In this document: positions 28,299 through 55,548 of the stretch, one piece after another
Layout of the letters: every line of letters begins with the position of its first letter
Position numbering within the stretch: position 1 is the stretch's first letter
Assembly: GCF_009914755.1 (NCBI RefSeq)
Contig: NC_060934.1
DNA length: 64,000 bases
Reading direction: 5' to 3' (one strand)
DNA from: the human T2T-CHM13v2.0 reference genome, Homo sapiens
Notes under the pieces: model-generated
Databases searched by the model: none
What the model was told of the DNA's origin: nothing
The model's input: only the letters and a program-made list of their open reading frames with translations
Program-made: the position numbers and the translations under genes

Positions 28299-29411
28299 TA
28301 ATCTTATGAGATGATTAATCAGAAAGAGCCCTGGGATGAATACATTTGAAAAATGCTGATCTAGCTCTTCTCTCTTGTGGAAATCAATTGCAGCATTTTG
28401 GTAGGGGTGCTGGGGGCAGAATCGGATGACCTTTGCTATTTTGCTGGGTCTTCCCTGGGCCTAAGAAGGTTAACTTTAGAGGATGGCGGTAGAACTCTTT
28501 CTGGGACTTGACCTGCAAGGCAGCTTCCTAGAGGACTTGCTAAAGTCTGTGAAGTAAGTGCTATGTTCCCATCCATGTGCCTAGAAGCCATCACCTGGTG
28601 GTTTATCTTGGTTCCAAGCAGAGAAAAGTAGAGGTTTAAAATGGAACAGTGTGGGCAGCACATGCACATATAGACAAACTTATGCGCAGATGTAAATGCA
28701 TCTTTTCTTTGGGATGCAAAACACTGAAATAGTCTATAAGCTTTTTATTATGGGGGAAGCTGAGTTAAATTGTTAAAAAACCTAACCAAATTTGAACTGC
28801 TCTTCCATCAAAATCATATGTATATTTCATCAGATGTGTACTCTTCAACAAGACTGGAATGTATTTTGTTACTTCCTCTGGAAAGCAATTATTACCACAC
28901 CTTTATAATAGGCTATCTCCAACAACCCCTTTGTCACATTAATTCATCCCACAGCCTGTGATCAAGTAAAATAAAACATTTGGTTACAAAGCAGAGTTGT
29001 TACTTTTTTTTCAAAGTAATGTACAGCATAAATAAATGACAGGTTTGCAGATGTAGGTGATGCTGATAAATTCTTGGGCTTGGAAAATGTACCTTCTCAT
29101 GTGGTTGGAGGCAATCTAAACTAAACCTCTGCAGAGACTCCAAATCATATATAGACCCACTCATTTCTCCTAATAGCCAAGGTACAGGTTGTTGCCAGAA
29201 ATTTGGGCTCCTACGTAATAAGCATCTTTACTTCTTAATTTTAGCATGAGATAGTTGCAACTGTCAAGACACACTTTTGTAAAAATTCTAAGCTCCATGG
29301 GAATCCAGATGCCACTGTGAGAATGACAACAGCCAGCCCTGATATTGTCCCCCCACAGCCAAACAAGTAGATTTTTCTGATGTAAAGTTTCATAGAAAGA
29401 CAGAGTGCTAC

Positions 29412-29467
29412 AATCAAGACAATCTAGCATGTGGTACACATTATAATAGTGGGAAAGGGACCAGTTT
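29412..29467 (+). repeat. 56-bp direct repeat, copy 1 (copy 2 at 38381-38436)
   Basis: AATCAAGACAATCTAGCATGTGGTACACATTATAATAGTGGGAAAGGGACCAGTTT; 54/56 identical to copy 2. Confidence 0.95.
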
Positions 29468-29651
29468 GGGCTAGAGAGAGAGGGGACCCAATACTTTCTG
29501 AGCCTTATCTAAGGGCCAGGCAGGCATTCAGGCACTTGGCATATATTAACTGCTTTAATTCTCAGGGTAATCCTGTGGGCCTGGTGTTATTATCACTGTA
29601 GGATGTCCATTAAATCTGGAAGTCCAGGTATAAGGGACATCCTATAGTGAT

Positions 29652-32600
29652 CATATATATATATATTTTTATATACATTATATATTTATATATAAATAAA
29701 ATTTTTATTACATATATACATTATATACTTATACATAATTTTTTATTTTATTATATATTTATATATCTATATTATATACATTATATAAATTTATATTATA
29801 TATTTATATATGATATAATTATATATCATATATTTATATATTATATAATTATATATCATATATTTATATATGATATAATTATATATCATATATTTATATA
29901 TGATATAATTATATATCATATATTTATATATGATATAATTATATATCATATATTTATATATGATATAATTATATATCATATATTTATATATTATATAATT
30001 ATATATCATATATTTATATATTATATAATTATATATCATATATTTATATATTATATAATATATATGTATATAATATATAAATATATAATATATAAATATA
30101 TAATATATATTTATATATATTTTATATATATATACACATATATATTATATATGTGTATATTATATAATATACACATATATCATATAATTATATATTATAT
30201 AATATATATATTATATATGTATACATTATATAATATATAATGTATACATTATATATTATATAATGTATATATTATATATTATATATGATATAATATATAT
30301 TATATAATATATATGTATATATTATATATATAATATATCATATATAATATATCATATATATTATATATGATATAATATATCATATATAATATATATGATA
30401 TATTATATATGATATAATATATCATATATAATATATATGATATATTATATATGATATAATATATCATATATAATATATCATATATAATATATATGATATA
30501 ATATATCATATATAATATATCATATATAATATATATGATATAATATATCATATATAATATATATGATATATTATATATGATATAATATATCATATATAAT
30601 ATATATGATATATTATATATGATATAATATATCATATATAATATATATGATATATTATATATGATATAATATATCATATATAATATATATGATATATTAT
30701 ATATGATATAATATATCATATATATTATATATGATATATTATATATGATATAATATATCATATATATTATATATGATATATTATATATGATATAATATAT
30801 CATATATATTATATATGATATATTATATATGATATAATATATCATATATATTATATATGATATATTATATATGATATAATATATCATATATATTATATAT
30901 GATATATTATATATGATATAATATATCATATATATTATATATGATATATTATATATGATATAATATATCATATATATTATATATGATATATTATATATGA
31001 TAATATATCATATATATTATATATGATATATTATATATGATATAATATATCATATATATTATATATGATATATTATATATGATATAATATATCATATATA
31101 TTATATATGATATATTATATATGATATAATATATCATATATATTATATATGATATATTATATATGATATAATATATCATATATATTATATATGATATATT
31201 ATATATGATATAATATATCATATATATTATATATGATATATTATATATGATATAATATATCATATATATTATATATGATATATTATATATGATATAATAT
31301 ATCATATATATTATATATGATATATTATATATGATATAATATATCATATATATTATATATGATATATTATATATGATATAATATATCATATATATTATAT
31401 ATGATATATTATATATGATATAATATATCATATATATTATATATGATATATTATATATGATATAATATATCATATATATTATATATGATATATTATATAT
31501 GATATAATATATCATATATATTATATATGATATATTATATATGATATAATATATCATATATATTATATATGATATATTATATCATATATAATATATCATA
31601 TATATTATATATGATATATTATATCATATATAATATATCATATATATTATATATGATATATTATATCATATATAATATATCATATATATTATATATGATA
31701 TATTATATCATATATAATATATCATATATATTATATATGATATATTATATCATATATAATATATCATATATATTATATATGATATATTATATCATATATA
31801 ATATATCATATATATTATATATGATATATTATATATGATATAATATATCATATATATTATATATGATATATTATATATGATATAATATATCATATATATT
31901 ATATATGATATATTATATATGATATAATATATCATATATATTATATATGATATATTATATATGATATAATATATCATATATATGATATATTATATATGAT
32001 ATAATATATCATATATATGATATATTATATATGATATAATATATCATATATATGATATATTATATATGATATAATATATCATATATATGATATATTATAT
32101 ATGATATAATATATCATATATATGATATATTATATATGATATAATATATCATATATATGATATATTATATATGATATAATATATCATATATATGATATAT
32201 TATATATGATATAATATATCATATATATGATATATTATATATGATATAATATATCATATATCATATATATGATATATTATATATGATATAATATATCATA
32301 TATCATATATATGATATATTATATATGATATAATATATCATATATATGATATATGATATATTATATATGATATAATATATCATATATATGATATATGATA
32401 TATTATATATGATATAATATATCATATATCATATATATGATATATTATATATGATATAATATATCATATATCATATATATGATATATTATATATGATATA
32501 ATATATCATATATATTATATATGATATATTATATATGATATAATATATCATATATCATATATATGATATATTATATATGATATAATATATCATATATCAT

Positions 32601-35600
32601 ATATATGATATATTATATATGATATAATATATCATATATTATATATGATATATTATATATGATATAATATATCATATATCATATATATGATATATTATAT
32701 ATGATATAATATATCATATATATTAATATGATATATTATATATGATATAATATATCATATATATTATATATGATATATTATATATGATATAATATATCAT
32801 ATATATTATATATGATATATTATATATGATATAATATATCATATATCTTATATATGATATATATATATGATATAATATATCATATATATGATATATGATT
32901 ATTATATATGATATAATATATCATATATATATATATGATATATTATATATGATATAATATATCATATATCATATATATGATATTATATATGATATAAATA
33001 TCATATATATGATATATGATATATTATATATGATATAATATATTCATATATCATATATATGATATATTATATATGATATAATATATATATATATGATATA
33101 TGATATATTATATATGATATAATATATCATATATCATATATATGATATATATATATGATATAATATATCATATATATGATATATGATATATTTATATATG
33201 ATATAATATATCATATATATTATATATGATATATTATATATGATATAATATATCATATATATATATATGATATATTATATATGATATAATATATCATATA
33301 TATTATATATGATATAATATATCATATATATTATATATGATATATTATTATGATATATATATCATATATATTATATATGATATATTATATATGATATAAT
33401 ATATCATATATATTATATATGAATAATATATCATATATATTATATATGATATATTATATATGAATAATATATCATATATTATATATGAATATATTATATA
33501 TGATATAATATATCATATATATTATATATGATATATTATATATGATATAATATATCATATATATTATATATGATATATTATATATGATATAATATATCAT
33601 ATATATTATATATGATATATTATATATGATATAATATATCATATATATTATATATGATATATTATATATGATATAATATATCATATATATTATATATGAT
33701 ATATTATATATGATATAATATATCATATATATTATATATGATATATTATATATGATATAATATATCATATATATTATATATGATATATTATATATGATAT
33801 AATATATCATATATATTATATATGATATATTATATATGATATAATATATCATATATATTATATATGATATATTATATATGATATAATATATCATATATAT
33901 TATATATGATATAATATATATGATATAATATATCATATATATTATATATGATATATTATATATGATATAATATATCATATATATTATATATGATATATTA
34001 TATATGATATAATATATCATATATATTATATGATATATTATATATGATATAATATATCATATATATTATATATGATATATTATATATGATATAATATATC
34101 ATATATATTATATATGATATATTATATATGATATAATATATCATATATATTATATATGATATATTATATATGATATAATATATCATATATATTATATATG
34201 ATATATTATATATGATATAATATATCATATATATTATATATGATATATTATATATGATATAATATATCATATATATTATATATGATATATTATATATGAT
34301 ATAATATATCATATATATATATGATATATTATATCATATATAATATATCATATATAATATATATGATATATTATATCATATATAATATATCATATATAAT
34401 ATATGATATAATATATCATATATATTATATATGATATATTATATATGATATAATATATCATATATATTATATATATGATATATTATATGATATAATATAT
34501 CATATATATTATATATGATATATTATATATGATATAATATATCATATATATTATATATGATATATTATATATGATATAATATATCATATATATTATATAT
34601 GATATATTATATATGATATAATATATCATATATATTATATATATGATATATTATATATGATATAATATATCATATATATTATATATGATATATTATATAT
34701 GATATAATATATCATATATATTATATGATATATTATATATGATATAATATATCATATATATTATATATGATATATTATATATGATATAATATATCATATA
34801 TATTATATATGATATATTATATATGATATAATATATCATATATATTATATATGATATATTATATATGATATAATATATCATATATATTATATATGATATA
34901 TTATATATGATATAATATATCATATATATTATATATGATATATTATATATGATATAATATCATATATATTATATATGATATATTATATATGATATAATAT
35001 ATCATATATATTATATATGATATATTATATATGATATAATATATCATATATATTATATATGATATATTATATATGATATAATATATCATATATATTATAT
35101 ATGATATATTATATATGATATAATATATCATATATATTATATATGATATATTATATATGATATAATATATCATATATATTATATATGATATATTATATAT
35201 GATATAATATATCATATATATTATATATGATATATTATATATGATATAATATATCATATATATTATATATGATATATTATATATGATATAATATATCATA
35301 TATATTATATATGATATATTATATATGATATAATATATCATATATATGATATATTATATATGATAATATATCATATATATATTATATATGATATAATATA
35401 TATTATATCATATATATTATATATGATATATTATATGATATAATATATATATATTATATATGATATAATATATCATATATATTATATATGATATATTATA
35501 TATGATATAATATATCATATATATTATATATGATATATTATATATGATATAATATATCATATATATTATATATGATATATTATATATGATATAATATATC

Positions 35601-38318
35601 ATATATATTATATATGATATATTATATATGATATAATATATCATATATATTATATATGATATATTATATATGATATAATATATCATATATATTATATATG
35701 ATATATTATATATGATATAATATATCATATATATTATATGATATATTATATATGATATAATATATCATATATATTATATGATATATTATATATGATATAA
35801 TATATCATATATATTATATATGATATATTATATATGATATAATATATCATATATATTATATATGATATATTATATATGATATAATATATCATATATATTA
35901 TATATGATATATTATATATGATATAATATATCATATATATTATATATGATATATTATATATGATATAATATATCATATATATTATATATGATATATTATA
36001 TATGATATAATATATCATATATATTATATATGATATATTATATATGATATAATATATCATATATATTATATATGATATATTATATATGATATAATATATC
36101 ATATATATTATATATGATATATTATATATGATATAATATATCATATATATTATATATGATATATTATATATGATATAATATATCATATATATTATATATG
36201 ATATATTATATATGATATAATATATCATATATATTATATATGATATATTATATATGATATAATATATCATATATATTATATATGATATATTATATATGAT
36301 ATAATATATCATATATATTATATATGATATATTATATATGATATAATATATCATATATATTATATATGATATATTATATATGATATAATATATCATATAT
36401 ATTATATATGATATATTATATATGATATAATATATCATATATATTATATATGATATATTATATATGATATAATATATCATATATATTATATATGATATAT
36501 TATATATGATATAATATATCATATATATTATATATGATATATTATATATGATATAATATATCATATATATTATATATGATATATTATATATGATATAATA
36601 TATCATATATATTATATATGATATATTATATATGATATAATATATCATATATATTATATATGATATATTATATATGATATAATATATCATATATATTATA
36701 TATGATATATTATATATGATATAATATATCATATATATTATATATGATATATTATATATGATATAATATATCATATATATTATATATGATATATTATATA
36801 TGATATAATATATCATATATATTATATATGATATATTATATATGATATAATATATCATATATATTATATATGATATATTATATATGATTATAATATATCA
36901 TATATATTATATATGATATATTATATATGATATAATATATCATATATATTATATATGATATATTATATATGATATAATATATCAATATATTATATATGAT
37001 ATATTATATATGATATAATATATCATATATATTATATATGAATATATTATATATGATATAATATATCATATATATTATATATGATATAATTATATATGAT
37101 ATAATATATCATATATATTATATATGATATATTATATATGATATAATATATCATATATATTATATATGATATATTATATATGATATAATATATCATATAT
37201 ATATATATGATATATTATATATGATATAATATCATATATATTATATATGATATTAATATGATATAATATATCAATATATATGATATATATATTATCATGA
37301 TATAATCTTATATATGATTAATATATCATATATATATATATGATATATTAATATGATATAATATATCATAATATATTAATATATGATATATTATATATGA
37401 TATAATTATTAATATATTATATATGATATTATTATAATGATATAATATATCATATATATTATATATGATATATTATAATATGATATAATATATCATATAT
37501 ATTATATATGATATATTATATATGATATAATATATCATATATATTATATATGAATATTATATATGATATAATATATCATATATATTATAATGATATATTA
37601 TTATGATATAATATATCATATATATTATATTATGATATATTATATAATGATATAATATATCATATATATTATATATGATATATTATATATGATATAATAT
37701 ATCATATATATTATATATGATATATTATATATGATATAATATATCATATATATTATATATGATATATTATATATGATATAATATATCATATATATTATAT
37801 ATGATATATTATATATGATATAATATATCATATATATTATATATAATATTATATATGATATACATATTATATATGTATATATTATATATGATATAATATA
37901 TATGTATATATTATATATGTATATATTTATATACATATATGTATATATTATGTATATATTTATATACATATATTATATATAATATATAATATATACGTAT
38001 ATAATATATAATACACTATATAATATATACGTATATTATATATATTAGATATAATATATACGTATATAATATATAATACACTATATAATATATACGTATA
38101 TAATACATATATACTATATAATATATATGTATATAATACATATATACTATATAATATATATGTATATAATACATATATACTATATAATATATACGTATAT
38201 AATACATGTATTATATACGTATATAATATATATGTATACAATATATACGTATATAATATATATGTATATATTATATAAATTATATATTATATATATGTAT
38301 TATATAAATTATATATTT
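29652..38318. repeat. ~8.7-kb AT-rich minisatellite: 30-bp proximal block, ~7.5 kb of 42-bp units, TACGTA-containing distal block (FRA10B-like)
   Basis: Main unit TATGATATATTATATATGATATAATATATCATATATATTATA, seen as a 14-aa period in the ORF track. 30-bp unit at ~29801-30060, 35-bp variant at ~31980-32250, seven TACGTA sites at 37994-38251. Confidence 0.98.
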
Positions 38319-38380
38319 TTTCACACTTTGAAGACATCTTTAATGACTATACAGCCCTCTCTGTCTAAGCATATGTATAT

Positions 38381-38436
38381 AATCAAGACAATCTAGCATG
38401 TGATATACATTATAATAGTGGGAAAGGGACCAGTTT
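38381..38436 (+). repeat. 56-bp direct repeat, copy 2, enclosed by a 35-bp inverted repeat (38319-38353 / 38448-38482)
   Basis: Direct comparison of the sequences; the IR arms are 31/35 complementary. Confidence 0.93.
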
Positions 38437-40008
38437 CCCACTATATATGTATAGTCATGAAGGATGTATTCAAAATGTGAAATAATAAAAATATTTCCCC
38501 TCTATTTTCTAAGTTGATGGAACCCTGCATTTGTAGATGGGTAAGATGAAGTTCAGCCAGTAATATGGTCACTGGGAATTGGACCTCAACCTGTCTGATT
38601 TCAAAGACCAGGTTTTCTCACGGACACCTCGCAGCTATGACCAGGAGTTTGACTTGCTTTGCAGGGAGGGAGGGCTAGAAAGAGGTCAGAGGTTTGCAGG
38701 TGAAACCTGACCACAGCAGGAATCACTGCAGGCATATAGGCTGTTTGGGAATTGAGCTATCTGCACAATCAGCAGGACTGGCCTTTTAGAGGAGGGTCAG
38801 CTGGGCCTCCAGGCACAAAGTGATGACCCTCTCAAGAAAAGTGAGCAGAATGAGTAAGTGGATGGCAAGTTGGACTTAAGAGTAAAGGTGAGAGGACGTG
38901 GGCTGCCTTCCACCCTGGAAAAAGAAAAAAAAAAAAGGAGTTGCAGGGCTTACCCCAAATCCCTTTAGAGAGTGCTCTGATTGGAATAGAAAAACAAAAT
39001 TTTAAGATCCCCTGCAAGCACCCAAAAAACTCCATTCAGATTTAGAACTCGTAATTCACCGGATGTTTGCTAGGTTGGACCTAGGGCATGAGCCTTAGCT
39101 ATCATTTTCTGCTTGCAGTATCTTATTTTCCACAACTCTCTTAGTTTTGTGGTTTTCAAAATCCCTACCACTGCTTTTGTTTGGAAATTAGTGAAGAGAA
39201 TCTGAAGGCTTTTCTCTCCTGGAGGCCTAGCTAGAATTCCAAATAAGCTGCTCCCTCCGTGAGGCTCAGGCGCAAGCCAGAGGCAAGTGCCAAACCAATA
39301 GCGCCTTGGGGCCTGGGCCCAGGAAGTTCTGTGCCATGCAAGAAGCCCTGCCTTTGTCAAGGAAAAGAAAAATGAGGGAGGCCCATTTGGCCTTTTTCTA
39401 TCCTCATGTAAAGGAGGATTTTGTGCTTAGAGATGATAACTTATGATGTGCCAGATAAAGTGATCATTGGACAGAGCGGCTAAGCTCTCAGTTTTACATT
39501 GATGTTGAGGGAGATGTTACATACAGTATATAATTGTATAGTTAGTTCTCCAGTAGCCTGCTTATTGTCTTCTTCACTGAGCTCTAAAGACCATGAGGAC
39601 AGGTTCTACATCTGCTTCGTTCATTGCTATCTGTACCCTCAGGTTCTAGCACTGAGTACATGAGAGATATTTAATGGGGACTCATGAATGAACGAGCATC
39701 AGGAATGGGTAGTTATGAGTTGTGCACTGAGCACAGGCCATGGGATAGCCCAGAGTCTGTCTCCATCACAGGATAGCCAAGGCAAGGTGGCTTTTAGATG
39801 TGTCACATGAATGAGAAAAGGAGGCAGCAAGTGTGGGAAGGAGTGCAGAAGAGAGGGAGATCACTGAGGCCTGGGATAGTCAGGGAAGGCTTGACAGCAA
39901 AGACAAGCTCAAAAATGCCCTCAAAGTTGGGTTAGGAGAGGCCACACCTGGGGCACCTGATAGCATGAGGAAAGGCAAGCTGAAGAAGATGAGAAAAGTA
40001 CATGGTGG

Positions 40009-50718: not shown

Positions 50719-50754
<36 letters not shown>

Positions 50755-50762
50755 TGTGTGTG
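50719..50762. repeat. (TG)n microsatellite
   Basis: (TG)17 TC (TG)4. Confidence 0.97.
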
Positions 50763-52510: not shown

Positions 52511-52810
<300 letters not shown>

Positions 52811-52820
52811 GTTCTGTTGA

Positions 52821-53163
<343 letters not shown>

Positions 53164-55464: not shown

Positions 55465-55548
55465 CTTGGTGGTAAGGCTACTAAAGATTGATTAGGAGCC
55501 ACATTTAAATGTGGCTCCTAATCAATCTTTAGTAGCCTTACCACCAAG
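55465..55548. repeat. Perfect 84-bp palindrome, no spacer
   Basis: CTTGGTGGTAAGGCTACTAAAGATTGATTAGGAGCCACATTT | AAATGTGGCTCCTAATCAATCTTTAGTAGCCTTACCACCAAG; 42/42 complementary. Confidence 0.99.

What the first reader, a model, noticed from the sequence alone, without database searches (positions are those of the whole stretch)
29652..38318. ~8.7-kb hairpin-forming 42-bp AT minisatellite: probable expanded FRA10B-type fragile-site allele
Seen: about 7.5 kb (roughly 170-180 unit equivalents) of a 42-bp unit. Each unit holds the perfect inverted repeat TATATGATATA-A-TATATCATATA (11-bp arms, extendable to 13). A 30-bp repeat block lies on the left and a TACGTA (SnaBI) block on the right. From recall: the rare BrdU-inducible fragile site FRA10B (10q25.2) is an expansion of a ~42-bp AT-rich repeat with an 11-bp inverted repeat. 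It has proximal, SnaBI and distal repeat classes, and alleles above about 5 kb are fragile. Inference: this is either a fully resolved expanded FRA10B allele or an undescribed locus of the same class. Such alleles are hard to clone and sequence, so a base-level view is valuable.
Basis: partly seen in the sequence, partly recalled or inferred. Interest (0 to 1): 0.88.

Follow-up and report, generated by a model that had tools for sequence, protein, structure and literature searches.

The report
FRA10B fragile-site minisatellite, long CHM13 allele
This is the already known FRA10B fragile-site repeat on chromosome 10q25.2, present in this reference genome as a long (8.7 kb), fully sequenced, hairpin-forming AT-rich array; whether this allele actually makes the chromosome fragile is untested.

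Summary
Window 29650-38317 (CHM13 chr10:112,125,650-112,134,317) is one 8.67-kb tandem array, 92.6% A+T. It has five blocks:
- a degenerate edge;
- a 30-bp repeat (9.2 copies);
- a degenerate block;
- 7,478 bp (178 units) of a 42-bp repeat;
- a 0.49-kb distal block holding all 7 SnaBI sites of the array.

It is 38/42 identical to its own reverse complement. 160 of the 161 genome-wide copies of the 23-nt palindrome lie in this array.

Several features match what the reviews I read give for FRA10B:
- the place, 10q25.2 (GRCh38 chr10:111-112 Mb);
- 22.6 Mb from the 10q end;
- the 42-bp unit;
- about 91% A+T.

So this is the known locus, not a new one.

The length exceeds the ">5 kb" that one review gives for fragility. 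But the array is a mosaic: 98 of 158 units are identical and the longest perfectly periodic tract is 1.1 kb. "Expanded and fragile" therefore stays open. Read support and population allele sizes could not be checked.

Interest is low to moderate. Side observations: a 59-bp direct repeat bracketing the array, hairpin-forming flanks, and a perfect 84-bp palindrome 17 kb distal.

The parts
29409..29467 (+). Left copy of a 59-bp direct repeat that brackets the array
   Evidence: 56/59 identical to 38378-38436. These are the only two copies found in the genome.
29588..29655 (.). Non-AT inverted repeat abutting the left edge of the array (33-nt arms, 2-nt spacer, 85% complementary)
   Evidence: it forms the dominant hairpin in the fold of the left flank.
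29646..29800 (+). Block A: degenerate AT-rich edge (weak ~43-bp period, 3 copies)
29792..30065 (+). Block B: proximal 30-bp repeat, 9.2 copies, 97% matches. The unit is a C-arm and a G-arm of the same 11-mer, separated by 4-nt spacers.
30061..30362 (+). Block C: degenerate AT-rich stretch with TG/CA interruptions
30362..37840 (+). Block D: main 42-bp minisatellite, 178 units (7,478 bp). The unit is G-arm, A, C-arm, TATTA, G-arm, TTA.
   Evidence: The unit folds as a hairpin with an 18-bp stem and 3-nt loop, -11.7 kcal/mol, z -4.1.
31543..31836 (-). Sub-block of units in effectively inverted orientation. The exact variant 42-mer starts at 6 places. It differs by ATG->CAT from the modal unit and by 1 mismatch in 42 from the modal unit's reverse complement.
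   Evidence: (6 minus-strand palindrome matches).
31963..32242 (+). Sub-block of 8 tandem 35-bp deletion-variant units, which still fold as a hairpin (-8.7 kcal/mol)
35775..36888 (+). Longest perfectly 42-periodic tract (1,114 bp; 25 identical units in a row from 35794)
37830..38317 (+). Block E: distal degenerate repeats (period ~33, 78% matches) holding the array's 7 TACGTA (SnaBI) sites
38314..38487 (.). Inverted repeat at the right edge (40-nt arms, 88% complementary, 94 nt between). The region folds into a long hairpin, -36 kcal/mol, z -8.9.
38378..38436 (+). Right copy of the 59-bp direct repeat, lying in the loop of the right-edge inverted repeat

Best explanation
The array is the FRA10B minisatellite locus (10q25.2) as assembled in T2T-CHM13. 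It is a non-coding, 92.6% A+T array of 8.67 kb, and its core is 178 units of a 42-bp repeat.

**Structure.** Each unit is three copies of one 11-mer in +,-,+ orientation. The central arm can pair with either neighbouring arm:
- one palindrome has 13-bp arms and a 1-nt centre;
- the other has an 18-bp stem and a 3-nt loop.

The unit as a whole is 38/42 self-reverse-complementary.

**Inferred mechanism** (from the literature on FRA16B and fragile sites, not shown for this allele):
- When single-stranded during replication, the tract folds into hairpins in many alternative registers.
- These stall and regress forks and delay replication.
- They favour slippage and template switching, which change copy number.
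- At long lengths, and more so after BrdU substitution of its many T's, the tract leaves an unreplicated gap that breaks. The results are the cytogenetic fragile site and mosaic 10q25.2-qter deletions.

**This allele.** The CHM13 allele is long: it lies above the 5-kb figure quoted for fragility. It is also a mosaic of variant blocks. It is best described as a long or borderline-expanded allele whose cytogenetic behaviour is unknown.
For: **Locus**
- The window is G000 C10:112,096,001-112,160,000. The contig is 134,758,134 bp long, so the array ends 22.62 Mb from the q end.
- Large FRA10B repeat expansions distort read depth at chr10:111-112 Mb (PMC12324623).
- 22-Mb mosaic 10q25.2 deletions occur at FRA10B (PMC8486654), and 20-Mb deletions starting at 10q25 (PMC11277968).

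**Uniqueness**
- 160 of 161 genome-wide exact copies of the 23-nt palindrome lie here.
- The modal 42-mer has 102 genome-wide hits. The 100 listed are all in this array.
- Both flanks are single copy.

**Structure**
- The unit hairpin is -11.7 kcal/mol, with 0 of 200 shuffles as stable. Three units give -37.8 kcal/mol, z -7.3.
- 126-nt windows in the 42-bp block average -34.0 kcal/mol (n=11). Outside the array they average -10.3 (n=88), and only 1 of 88 is as stable.

**Traces of the proposed mutational processes**
- Variant units occur in tandem blocks: 8 units of 35 bp, and a block whose exact variant 42-mer starts at 6 places.
- That variant is the exact reverse complement of a 41-nt segment of the modal tandem (ATG->CAT). 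This is as expected from hairpin-templated switching or inversion.

**Mechanism by analogy**
- 14 copies of the FRA16B unit stall polymerases and regress forks, and cause deletions and expansions. All fragile sites tested, FRA10B included, replicate late (PMC2875025; PMC9714581).
Against: - No primary FRA10B sequence or coordinate could be compared. Hewett 1998, Loh 2018, Huijsdens-van Amsterdam 2018 and Zlotorynski 2003 are not held.
- The match to GRCh38 '111-112 Mb' relies on a CHM13-GRCh38 offset of about 0.9 Mb that I recall and did not compute.
- An attempt to anchor the place on SMC3, said to lie near FRA10B, found no chr10 match for the SMC hinge family.
- The mechanism is inferred from FRA16B and from fold predictions on naked single strands. 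Nothing here shows stalling or breakage at this allele.
- The review speaks of 'uninterrupted' AT-rich motifs spanning several kilobases. This allele is interrupted at least every 1.1 kb.
Confidence: 0.85

Rival explanations
1. The CHM13 allele is a truly expanded FRA10B allele that would show BrdU-inducible gaps at 10q25.2, on both homologues in this homozygous cell line, and predispose to 10q25.2-qter loss. This refines the best explanation and does not exclude it.
For: - The array is 8.67 kb, of which 7.48 kb is 42-bp repeats. The review quotes '> 5 kb' for fragility.
- Long homogeneous runs point to recent local amplification: 25 identical units in a row, and 98 of 158 units identical.
- For comparison, the FRA16B motif gives only 19 matches over about 0.6 kb in the same genome.
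Against: - Rare fragile sites occur in <=5% of people, so the prior is low.
- The array is a mosaic of 37 unit variants. Its longest perfectly periodic tract is 1,114 bp, while the review describes 'uninterrupted' kilobase tracts.
- I could not check how the 5-kb threshold was measured, because the primary paper is not held.
- I could not see the population length distribution.
Confidence: 0.4
2. The length is an assembly artefact: the real CHM13 array is much shorter or longer, and the copy number was mis-assembled in this low-complexity tract.
For: None from my calls. Extremely AT-rich hairpin-forming repeats are hard to sequence in general (background knowledge).
Against: - The window has no N.
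- The array is not a featureless run. It holds 37 unit variants in a non-periodic order, and identity at lags 42, 84 and 126 decays monotonically.
- The longest perfectly periodic tract is only 1.1 kb. That is far shorter than long reads (background knowledge), so placement of copies is well constrained.
- Reads could not be inspected here.
Confidence: 0.05
3. It is a separate, undescribed AT-rich minisatellite that merely lies in the same band as FRA10B.
For: I could compare no primary FRA10B sequence. Published FRA10B alleles differ in motif between families.
Against: - Unit length, A+T content, band, megabase interval and distance to the telomere all fit.
- The palindrome and the modal 42-mer occur as an array nowhere else in the genome.
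- At up to 3 mismatches, the 8 matches listed outside this array all lie on other chromosomes, and no two lie close together. A further 87 matches were not listed.
Confidence: 0.03

Closest known systems
FRA10B, the rare BrdU-inducible fragile site at 10q25.2 (Hewett et al. 1998, known to me only through citing reviews)
   Same: - Chromosome band and megabase interval.
- ~42-bp consensus unit.
- About 91-93% A+T.
- Kilobase-scale array with motif variants of different length (35, 40, 41 and 42 bp here).
- Distance to 10qter equals the size of the FRA10B-associated deletions.
   Different: No structural difference found: this is the locus itself. What is specific here is the allele.
- It is 8.67 kb and base-resolved.
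- It is a mosaic, not one uninterrupted motif.
- Its fragility is untested.
FRA16B, the 33-bp AT-rich minisatellite at 16q22.1 (Yu et al. 1997; Burrow et al. 2010, PMC2875025)
   Same: The same class: an AT-rich minisatellite whose expansion gives a rare non-folate fragile site. For FRA16B, secondary structure stalls replication.
   Different: - The unit is unrelated. The published 33-bp motif maps only to chr16:71,116,559-71,117,176 in this genome: 19 matches over about 0.6 kb.
- Its single unit folds weakly: -4.5 kcal/mol, z -1.3, with 22 of 200 shuffles as stable. The FRA10B unit gives -11.7 kcal/mol, z -4.1.
AT-rich cruciform-forming sequence in the common fragile site FRA16D, and palindromic AT-rich repeats (PATRRs) of 11q23/22q11 (PATRRs recalled, not from a call)
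   Same: AT-rich inverted repeats that form hairpins or cruciforms, block forks and break chromosomes (FRA16D: passage).
   Different: Those are single long palindromes or (AT)n runs. They are not a 178-fold tandem array of a short quasi-palindromic unit.

Membership tests
FRA10B locus | Lies at 10q25.2 (GRCh38 chr10:111-112 Mb), at the start of the ~20-22-Mb terminal deletions | tested here: met
   The array is at CHM13 chr10:112,125,650-112,134,317, 22.62 Mb from the contig end. The CHM13-to-GRCh38 offset (~0.9 Mb) is recalled.
FRA10B locus | AT-rich (~91%) minisatellite with a ~42-bp consensus and motif-length variants | tested here: met
   Period 42, 178 units, 92.6% A+T. Variants of 35, 40, 41 and 43 bp are present.
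FRA10B locus | Unit and flanks identical to the published FRA10B clones | not tested
   Hewett 1998 and Loh 2018 are not held. No published FRA10B sequence was available from any tool.
   A proximal 30-bp block and a distal block with 7 SnaBI sites exist. The published scheme could not be read.
Expanded (fragile) FRA10B allele | Repeat longer than 5 kb | tested here: met
   The array is 8.67 kb, with a 7.48-kb 42-bp block, against '> 5 kb' in the PMC9714581 table. The basis of that figure is unknown to me.
Expanded (fragile) FRA10B allele | Uninterrupted expanded motif spanning several kilobases | tested here: not met
   The longest perfectly 42-periodic tract is 1,114 bp. 98 of 158 units are modal and there are 37 variants. 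The wording 'uninterrupted' comes from the review.
Expanded (fragile) FRA10B allele | BrdU-inducible gap at 10q25.2; late replication; somatic or intergenerational instability | not testable with these tools
   Needs CHM13 metaphases, replication timing data and pedigree or clonal data.
FRA16B sequence family | 33-bp (or 35-bp) FRA16B unit | tested here: not met
   The motif printed in PMC2875025 matches only chr16. It is not found in this array.
Structure-forming AT-rich fragile minisatellite (class of FRA10B and FRA16B) | Single strands predicted to fold far better than composition-matched shuffles | tested here: met
   Unit z -4.1; three units z -7.3. Array windows average -34.0 kcal/mol against -10.3 elsewhere.

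The most novel reading that the evidence does not exclude
The T2T-CHM13 reference haplotype itself carries a FRA10B allele in the fragile size range.

If so, the available CHM13 cell line, homozygous for this exact base-resolved 8.67-kb sequence, would show BrdU-inducible 10q25.2 gaps. That would give the first one-to-one link between a complete FRA10B allele sequence and fragility.

The allele would come with its map of interruptions, its inverted-unit blocks (ATG->CAT template-switch signature) and a 59-bp duplication bracketing the array that may be a scar of past break repair.

In the held library only one paper contains both 'FRA10B' and 'CHM13' (a review; listing). In that review I read only the FRA10B passages, and they do not describe this allele.
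Probability: 0.35. Interest if true: 0.55.

Novelty: already known. Interest (0 to 1): 0.3.

Why it matters
FRA10B expansions are linked in the papers I read to two things:
- mosaic 10q25.2-qter deletions in blood;
- false-positive cell-free-DNA prenatal screens (passages).

They also distort short-read depth around the locus.

A complete sequence of a long allele is useful in several ways:
- It shows what such an allele is made of: a quasi-palindromic 42-bp unit, blocks of amplified variants, inverted-unit blocks and hairpin-forming flanks.
- It gives exact probes and flanks for sizing the locus in long-read cohorts.
- It would let length be tested against purity as the determinant of fragility in a cell line that exists.

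The locus and its general mechanism are textbook, however, so this refines known biology and is not a discovery.

Tried and rejected
1. **Primary papers.** Hewett 1998, Loh 2018 (by PMC id and by DOI), Huijsdens-van Amsterdam 2018 and Zlotorynski 2003 are not held.
2. **Literature searches.**
   - A broad search with FRA10B plus genome-build terms returned 33,633 papers and was useless.
   - The search for rs118137427 gave only the two versions of the Strand-seq paper.
   - Three papers turned out to cite FRA10B in their reference lists only.
4. **Anchoring on SMC3.** The Pfam SMC hinge family gave 6 matches, none on chr10. This is uninformative.
5. **A 126-bp (3-unit) higher-order repeat.** TRF's higher score suggested one, but I rejected it. 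Identity falls monotonically at lags 42, 84, 126 and 168, both over all bases and over G/C positions only.
6. **The flanks as copies of a dispersed element.** Rejected: both flanks are single copy apart from the 59-bp pair.
7. **The 84-bp palindrome at 55465-55548 as a known RNA.** Only sub-threshold Rfam hits were found.
8. **Fold of one 30-bp proximal unit.** As sampled at 29822-29851 (the T variant), a single unit does not fold better than shuffles. A 90-nt stretch of that block does, z -3.7.


Full report

Yes. Tandem Repeats Finder reports one array at 29653-38316 with period 42, 207.5 copies and 91% matches. It is the only large tandem repeat in the 64-kb window. GC falls from 0.38-0.47 in the flanks to 0.058-0.090 inside. 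A+T over 29646-38318 is 92.6%.

The spacing is exactly 42 in 114 of 151 intervals. On both strands there are 160 matches, and none in any of 100 dinucleotide-preserving shuffles. The 12-bp-arm form occurs 151 times, and reading the unit shows that the arms extend to 13 bp.

**2. Anatomy**

| Block | Coordinates | Content |
|---|---|---|
| A | 29646-29800 | degenerate AT-rich |
| B | 29792-30065 | 30-bp unit, 9.2 copies, 97% matches |
| C | 30061-30362 | degenerate, with TG/CA interruptions |
| D | 30362-37840 | 42-bp unit, 178.7 copies, 94% matches (7,478 bp) |
| E | 37830-38317 | period about 33, 78% matches |

Block E holds 7 of the window's 9 TACGTA sites. They are the array's only CpGs.

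The array holds 339 G-arms (TATATGATATA) and 203 C-arms (the reverse complement). The dominant arm-to-arm spacings are G-12-C (160 times), C-16-G (129) and G-14-G (142). The 42-bp unit is therefore G-arm, A, C-arm, TATTA, G-arm, TTA. This explains the constant GC skew of +0.33. The 30-bp proximal unit is a C-arm and a G-arm with 4-nt spacers.

Cutting block D at each palindrome centre gives 158 units of 37 distinct kinds:
- 98 of the 158 are the identical modal 42-mer.
- The longest run is 25 identical units, from 35794.
- The longest perfectly 42-periodic tract is 1,114 bp, from 35775.

Variants sit in tandem blocks:
- 8 units of 35 bp at 31963.
- A block at 31543-31836.
- Mixed 7-bp-slippage variants at 32243-32743.
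- Two indel-rich stretches, at about 32.8-33.5 kb and 36.9-37.65 kb.

There is no real 126-bp higher-order repeat. Identity decays monotonically at lags 42, 84 and 126.

**3. Structure**

The modal unit folds as single-stranded DNA into a hairpin with an 18-bp stem and a 3-nt loop. It covers 39 of 42 nt at -11.7 kcal/mol. Shuffles average -5.9, giving z -4.1, and 0 of 200 shuffles are as stable. The other strand folds the same way.

The C-arm can pair with the upstream or the downstream G-arm.
- Three units give -37.8 kcal/mol (z -7.3), with a two-unit fold-back.
- The unit matches its own reverse complement at 38 of 42 positions, so any part of the tract can pair with any other.
- Of 126-nt windows taken every 630 nt, the 11 in block D average -34.0 kcal/mol (range -46.9 to -24.1).
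- The 88 windows outside the array average -10.3 (sd 5.5). Only 1 of the 88 is as stable.

**4. Traces of mechanism in the sequence** (inference)

The block at 31543-31836 carries the palindrome on the opposite strand. Six minus-strand matches lie there and two more at 34318 and 34360. Its 42-mer occurs 6 times and compares as follows:
- It differs from the modal unit by three adjacent bases, ATG->CAT, which is their exact reverse complement.
- It equals the reverse complement of a 41-nt segment of the modal tandem.
- It is 1 mismatch from the reverse complement of the modal unit.

One event explains this better than three substitutions. It was either a hairpin-templated strand switch or an inversion, followed by tandem amplification. 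Together with the blocks of 35-bp and 7-bp-slippage variants, this fits an array that evolves by slippage and template switching.

**5. What it is**

The own-genome search confirms the window as C10:112,096,001-112,160,000 of a 3.117-Gb, 24-contig assembly. The array is therefore chr10:112,125,650-112,134,317. The contig is 134,758,134 bp long, so 22.62 Mb lie distal to the array.

From passages of papers (I read passages only, not whole texts):
- Large FRA10B expansions caused artefactual calls at chr10:111-112 Mb in UK Biobank WGS (PMC12324623).
- A 22-Mb mosaic 10q25.2 deletion arises at FRA10B (PMC8486654). 20-Mb deletions start at 10q25 in FRA10B carriers (PMC11277968).
- Fragile FRA10B alleles explain 10q25.2-qter deletions in Europeans and are absent in Japan (bioRxiv 10.1101/653733).

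The CHM13 coordinate corresponds to about 111.2 Mb in GRCh38, if the offset is the ~0.9 Mb that I recall.

The sequence is specific to this locus:
- 160 of the 161 exact genome-wide copies of the palindrome are here. The other is on chr8.
- The modal 42-mer has 102 hits, and the 100 listed are all here.
- At up to 3 mismatches there are 187 hits against 21 for the reversed control. Of the 100 listed, the 8 outside this array lie on other chromosomes, none close to another; 87 more were not listed.
- Both flanks are single copy.

I conclude that this is FRA10B itself (about 0.93) and not a new locus.

**6. Is the allele 'expanded'?**

Points for:
- Its length is above the quoted 5 kb.
- It has long identical runs.
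- The published FRA16B motif finds only 19 matches over about 0.6 kb at chr16:71.117 Mb in the same genome. It lies inside an AT-rich tract of about 2.7 kb.

Points against:
- The mosaic composition and the 1.1-kb purity limit, set against the review's 'uninterrupted ... several kilobases'.
- The low prior for a rare fragile site, <=5%.
- My inability to see how the threshold was measured, what lengths are usual, or whether reads support the assembly.

I put about 0.4 on cytogenetic fragility and about 0.05 on an assembly artefact in length.

**7. Mechanism**

The mechanism is inferred from established work. It is not shown here for this allele.
- Fragile sites including FRA10B replicate late.
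- 14 copies of the FRA16B unit stall polymerase, regress forks and give deletions or expansions.
- An AT-rich cruciform-forming sequence in FRA16D blocks forks and breaks chromosomes in yeast (PMC2875025; PMC9714581).

The FRA10B unit is a much stronger hairpin than the FRA16B unit: -11.7 against -4.5 kcal/mol, z -4.1 against -1.3. The same route is therefore plausible:
- hairpins form on the single-stranded template;
- forks stall and replication is incomplete;
- the result is a gap or break, and terminal deletion.

BrdU substitution of the T-rich tract would aggravate this (background knowledge).

**8. Flanks** (side finding)
- A 59-bp direct repeat (56/59 identical) lies at 29409-29467 and 38378-38436, and nowhere else in the genome.
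- The right copy sits in the loop of an inverted repeat with 40-nt arms. Its last part pairs with adjacent unique sequence in a fold of -36 kcal/mol, z -8.9.
- The left edge abuts an inverted repeat with 33-nt arms.
- The pair may be a templated-insertion or duplication scar. That is speculation.

**9. Novelty and score**

The locus, its unit class and its consequences are known, so novelty is 'already known'. New here are the base-level map of one long allele and the side findings. In the held library, only one paper holds both 'FRA10B' and 'CHM13' (a review). In that review I read only the FRA10B passages, and they do not describe this allele. Interest is 0.3.

Noticed in passing
window 55465-55548: A perfect, spacerless 84-bp palindrome (42-nt arms, 100% complementary) in sequence that is not AT-rich, about 17 kb distal to the array. 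It is the only window outside the array that folds as stably: -48.1 kcal/mol for 126 nt. It is single copy in the genome. Rfam gives only sub-threshold generic miRNA-hairpin hits. Unexplained.
   Followed up: partly
window 29409-29467 and 38378-38436: A 59-bp direct repeat (56/59 identical) brackets the array. These are the only two copies in the genome. It may be a duplication or templated-insertion scar at the array edge.
   Followed up: partly
window 29588-29655 and 38314-38487: Both edges of the array abut inverted repeats that are not part of the repeat unit: 33-nt arms with a 2-nt spacer on the left, and 40-nt arms with 94 nt between on the right. The right region folds at -36 kcal/mol, z -8.9.
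   Followed up: partly
L012 (G000 C16:71,115,118-71,118,150): The FRA16B motif printed in PMC2875025 maps to chr16:71,116,559-71,117,176. There are 19 matches, spaced 28 bp and then 33 bp, inside an AT-rich tract of about 2.7 kb. The FRA16B allele of CHM13 is therefore short.
   Followed up: partly
G000 C8:25,880,715-25,880,737 and C23:25,409,083-25,409,124: The single copy of the 23-nt palindrome outside the array is on chr8. A 42-mer with 2 mismatches to the modal unit is on chrX. I did not look at their surroundings.
   Followed up: no
window 50719-50762 and 52522-53121: A (TG)22 microsatellite, and a 311-bp unit present 1.9 times whose consensus looks like an Alu (my recognition, not tested).
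   Followed up: no
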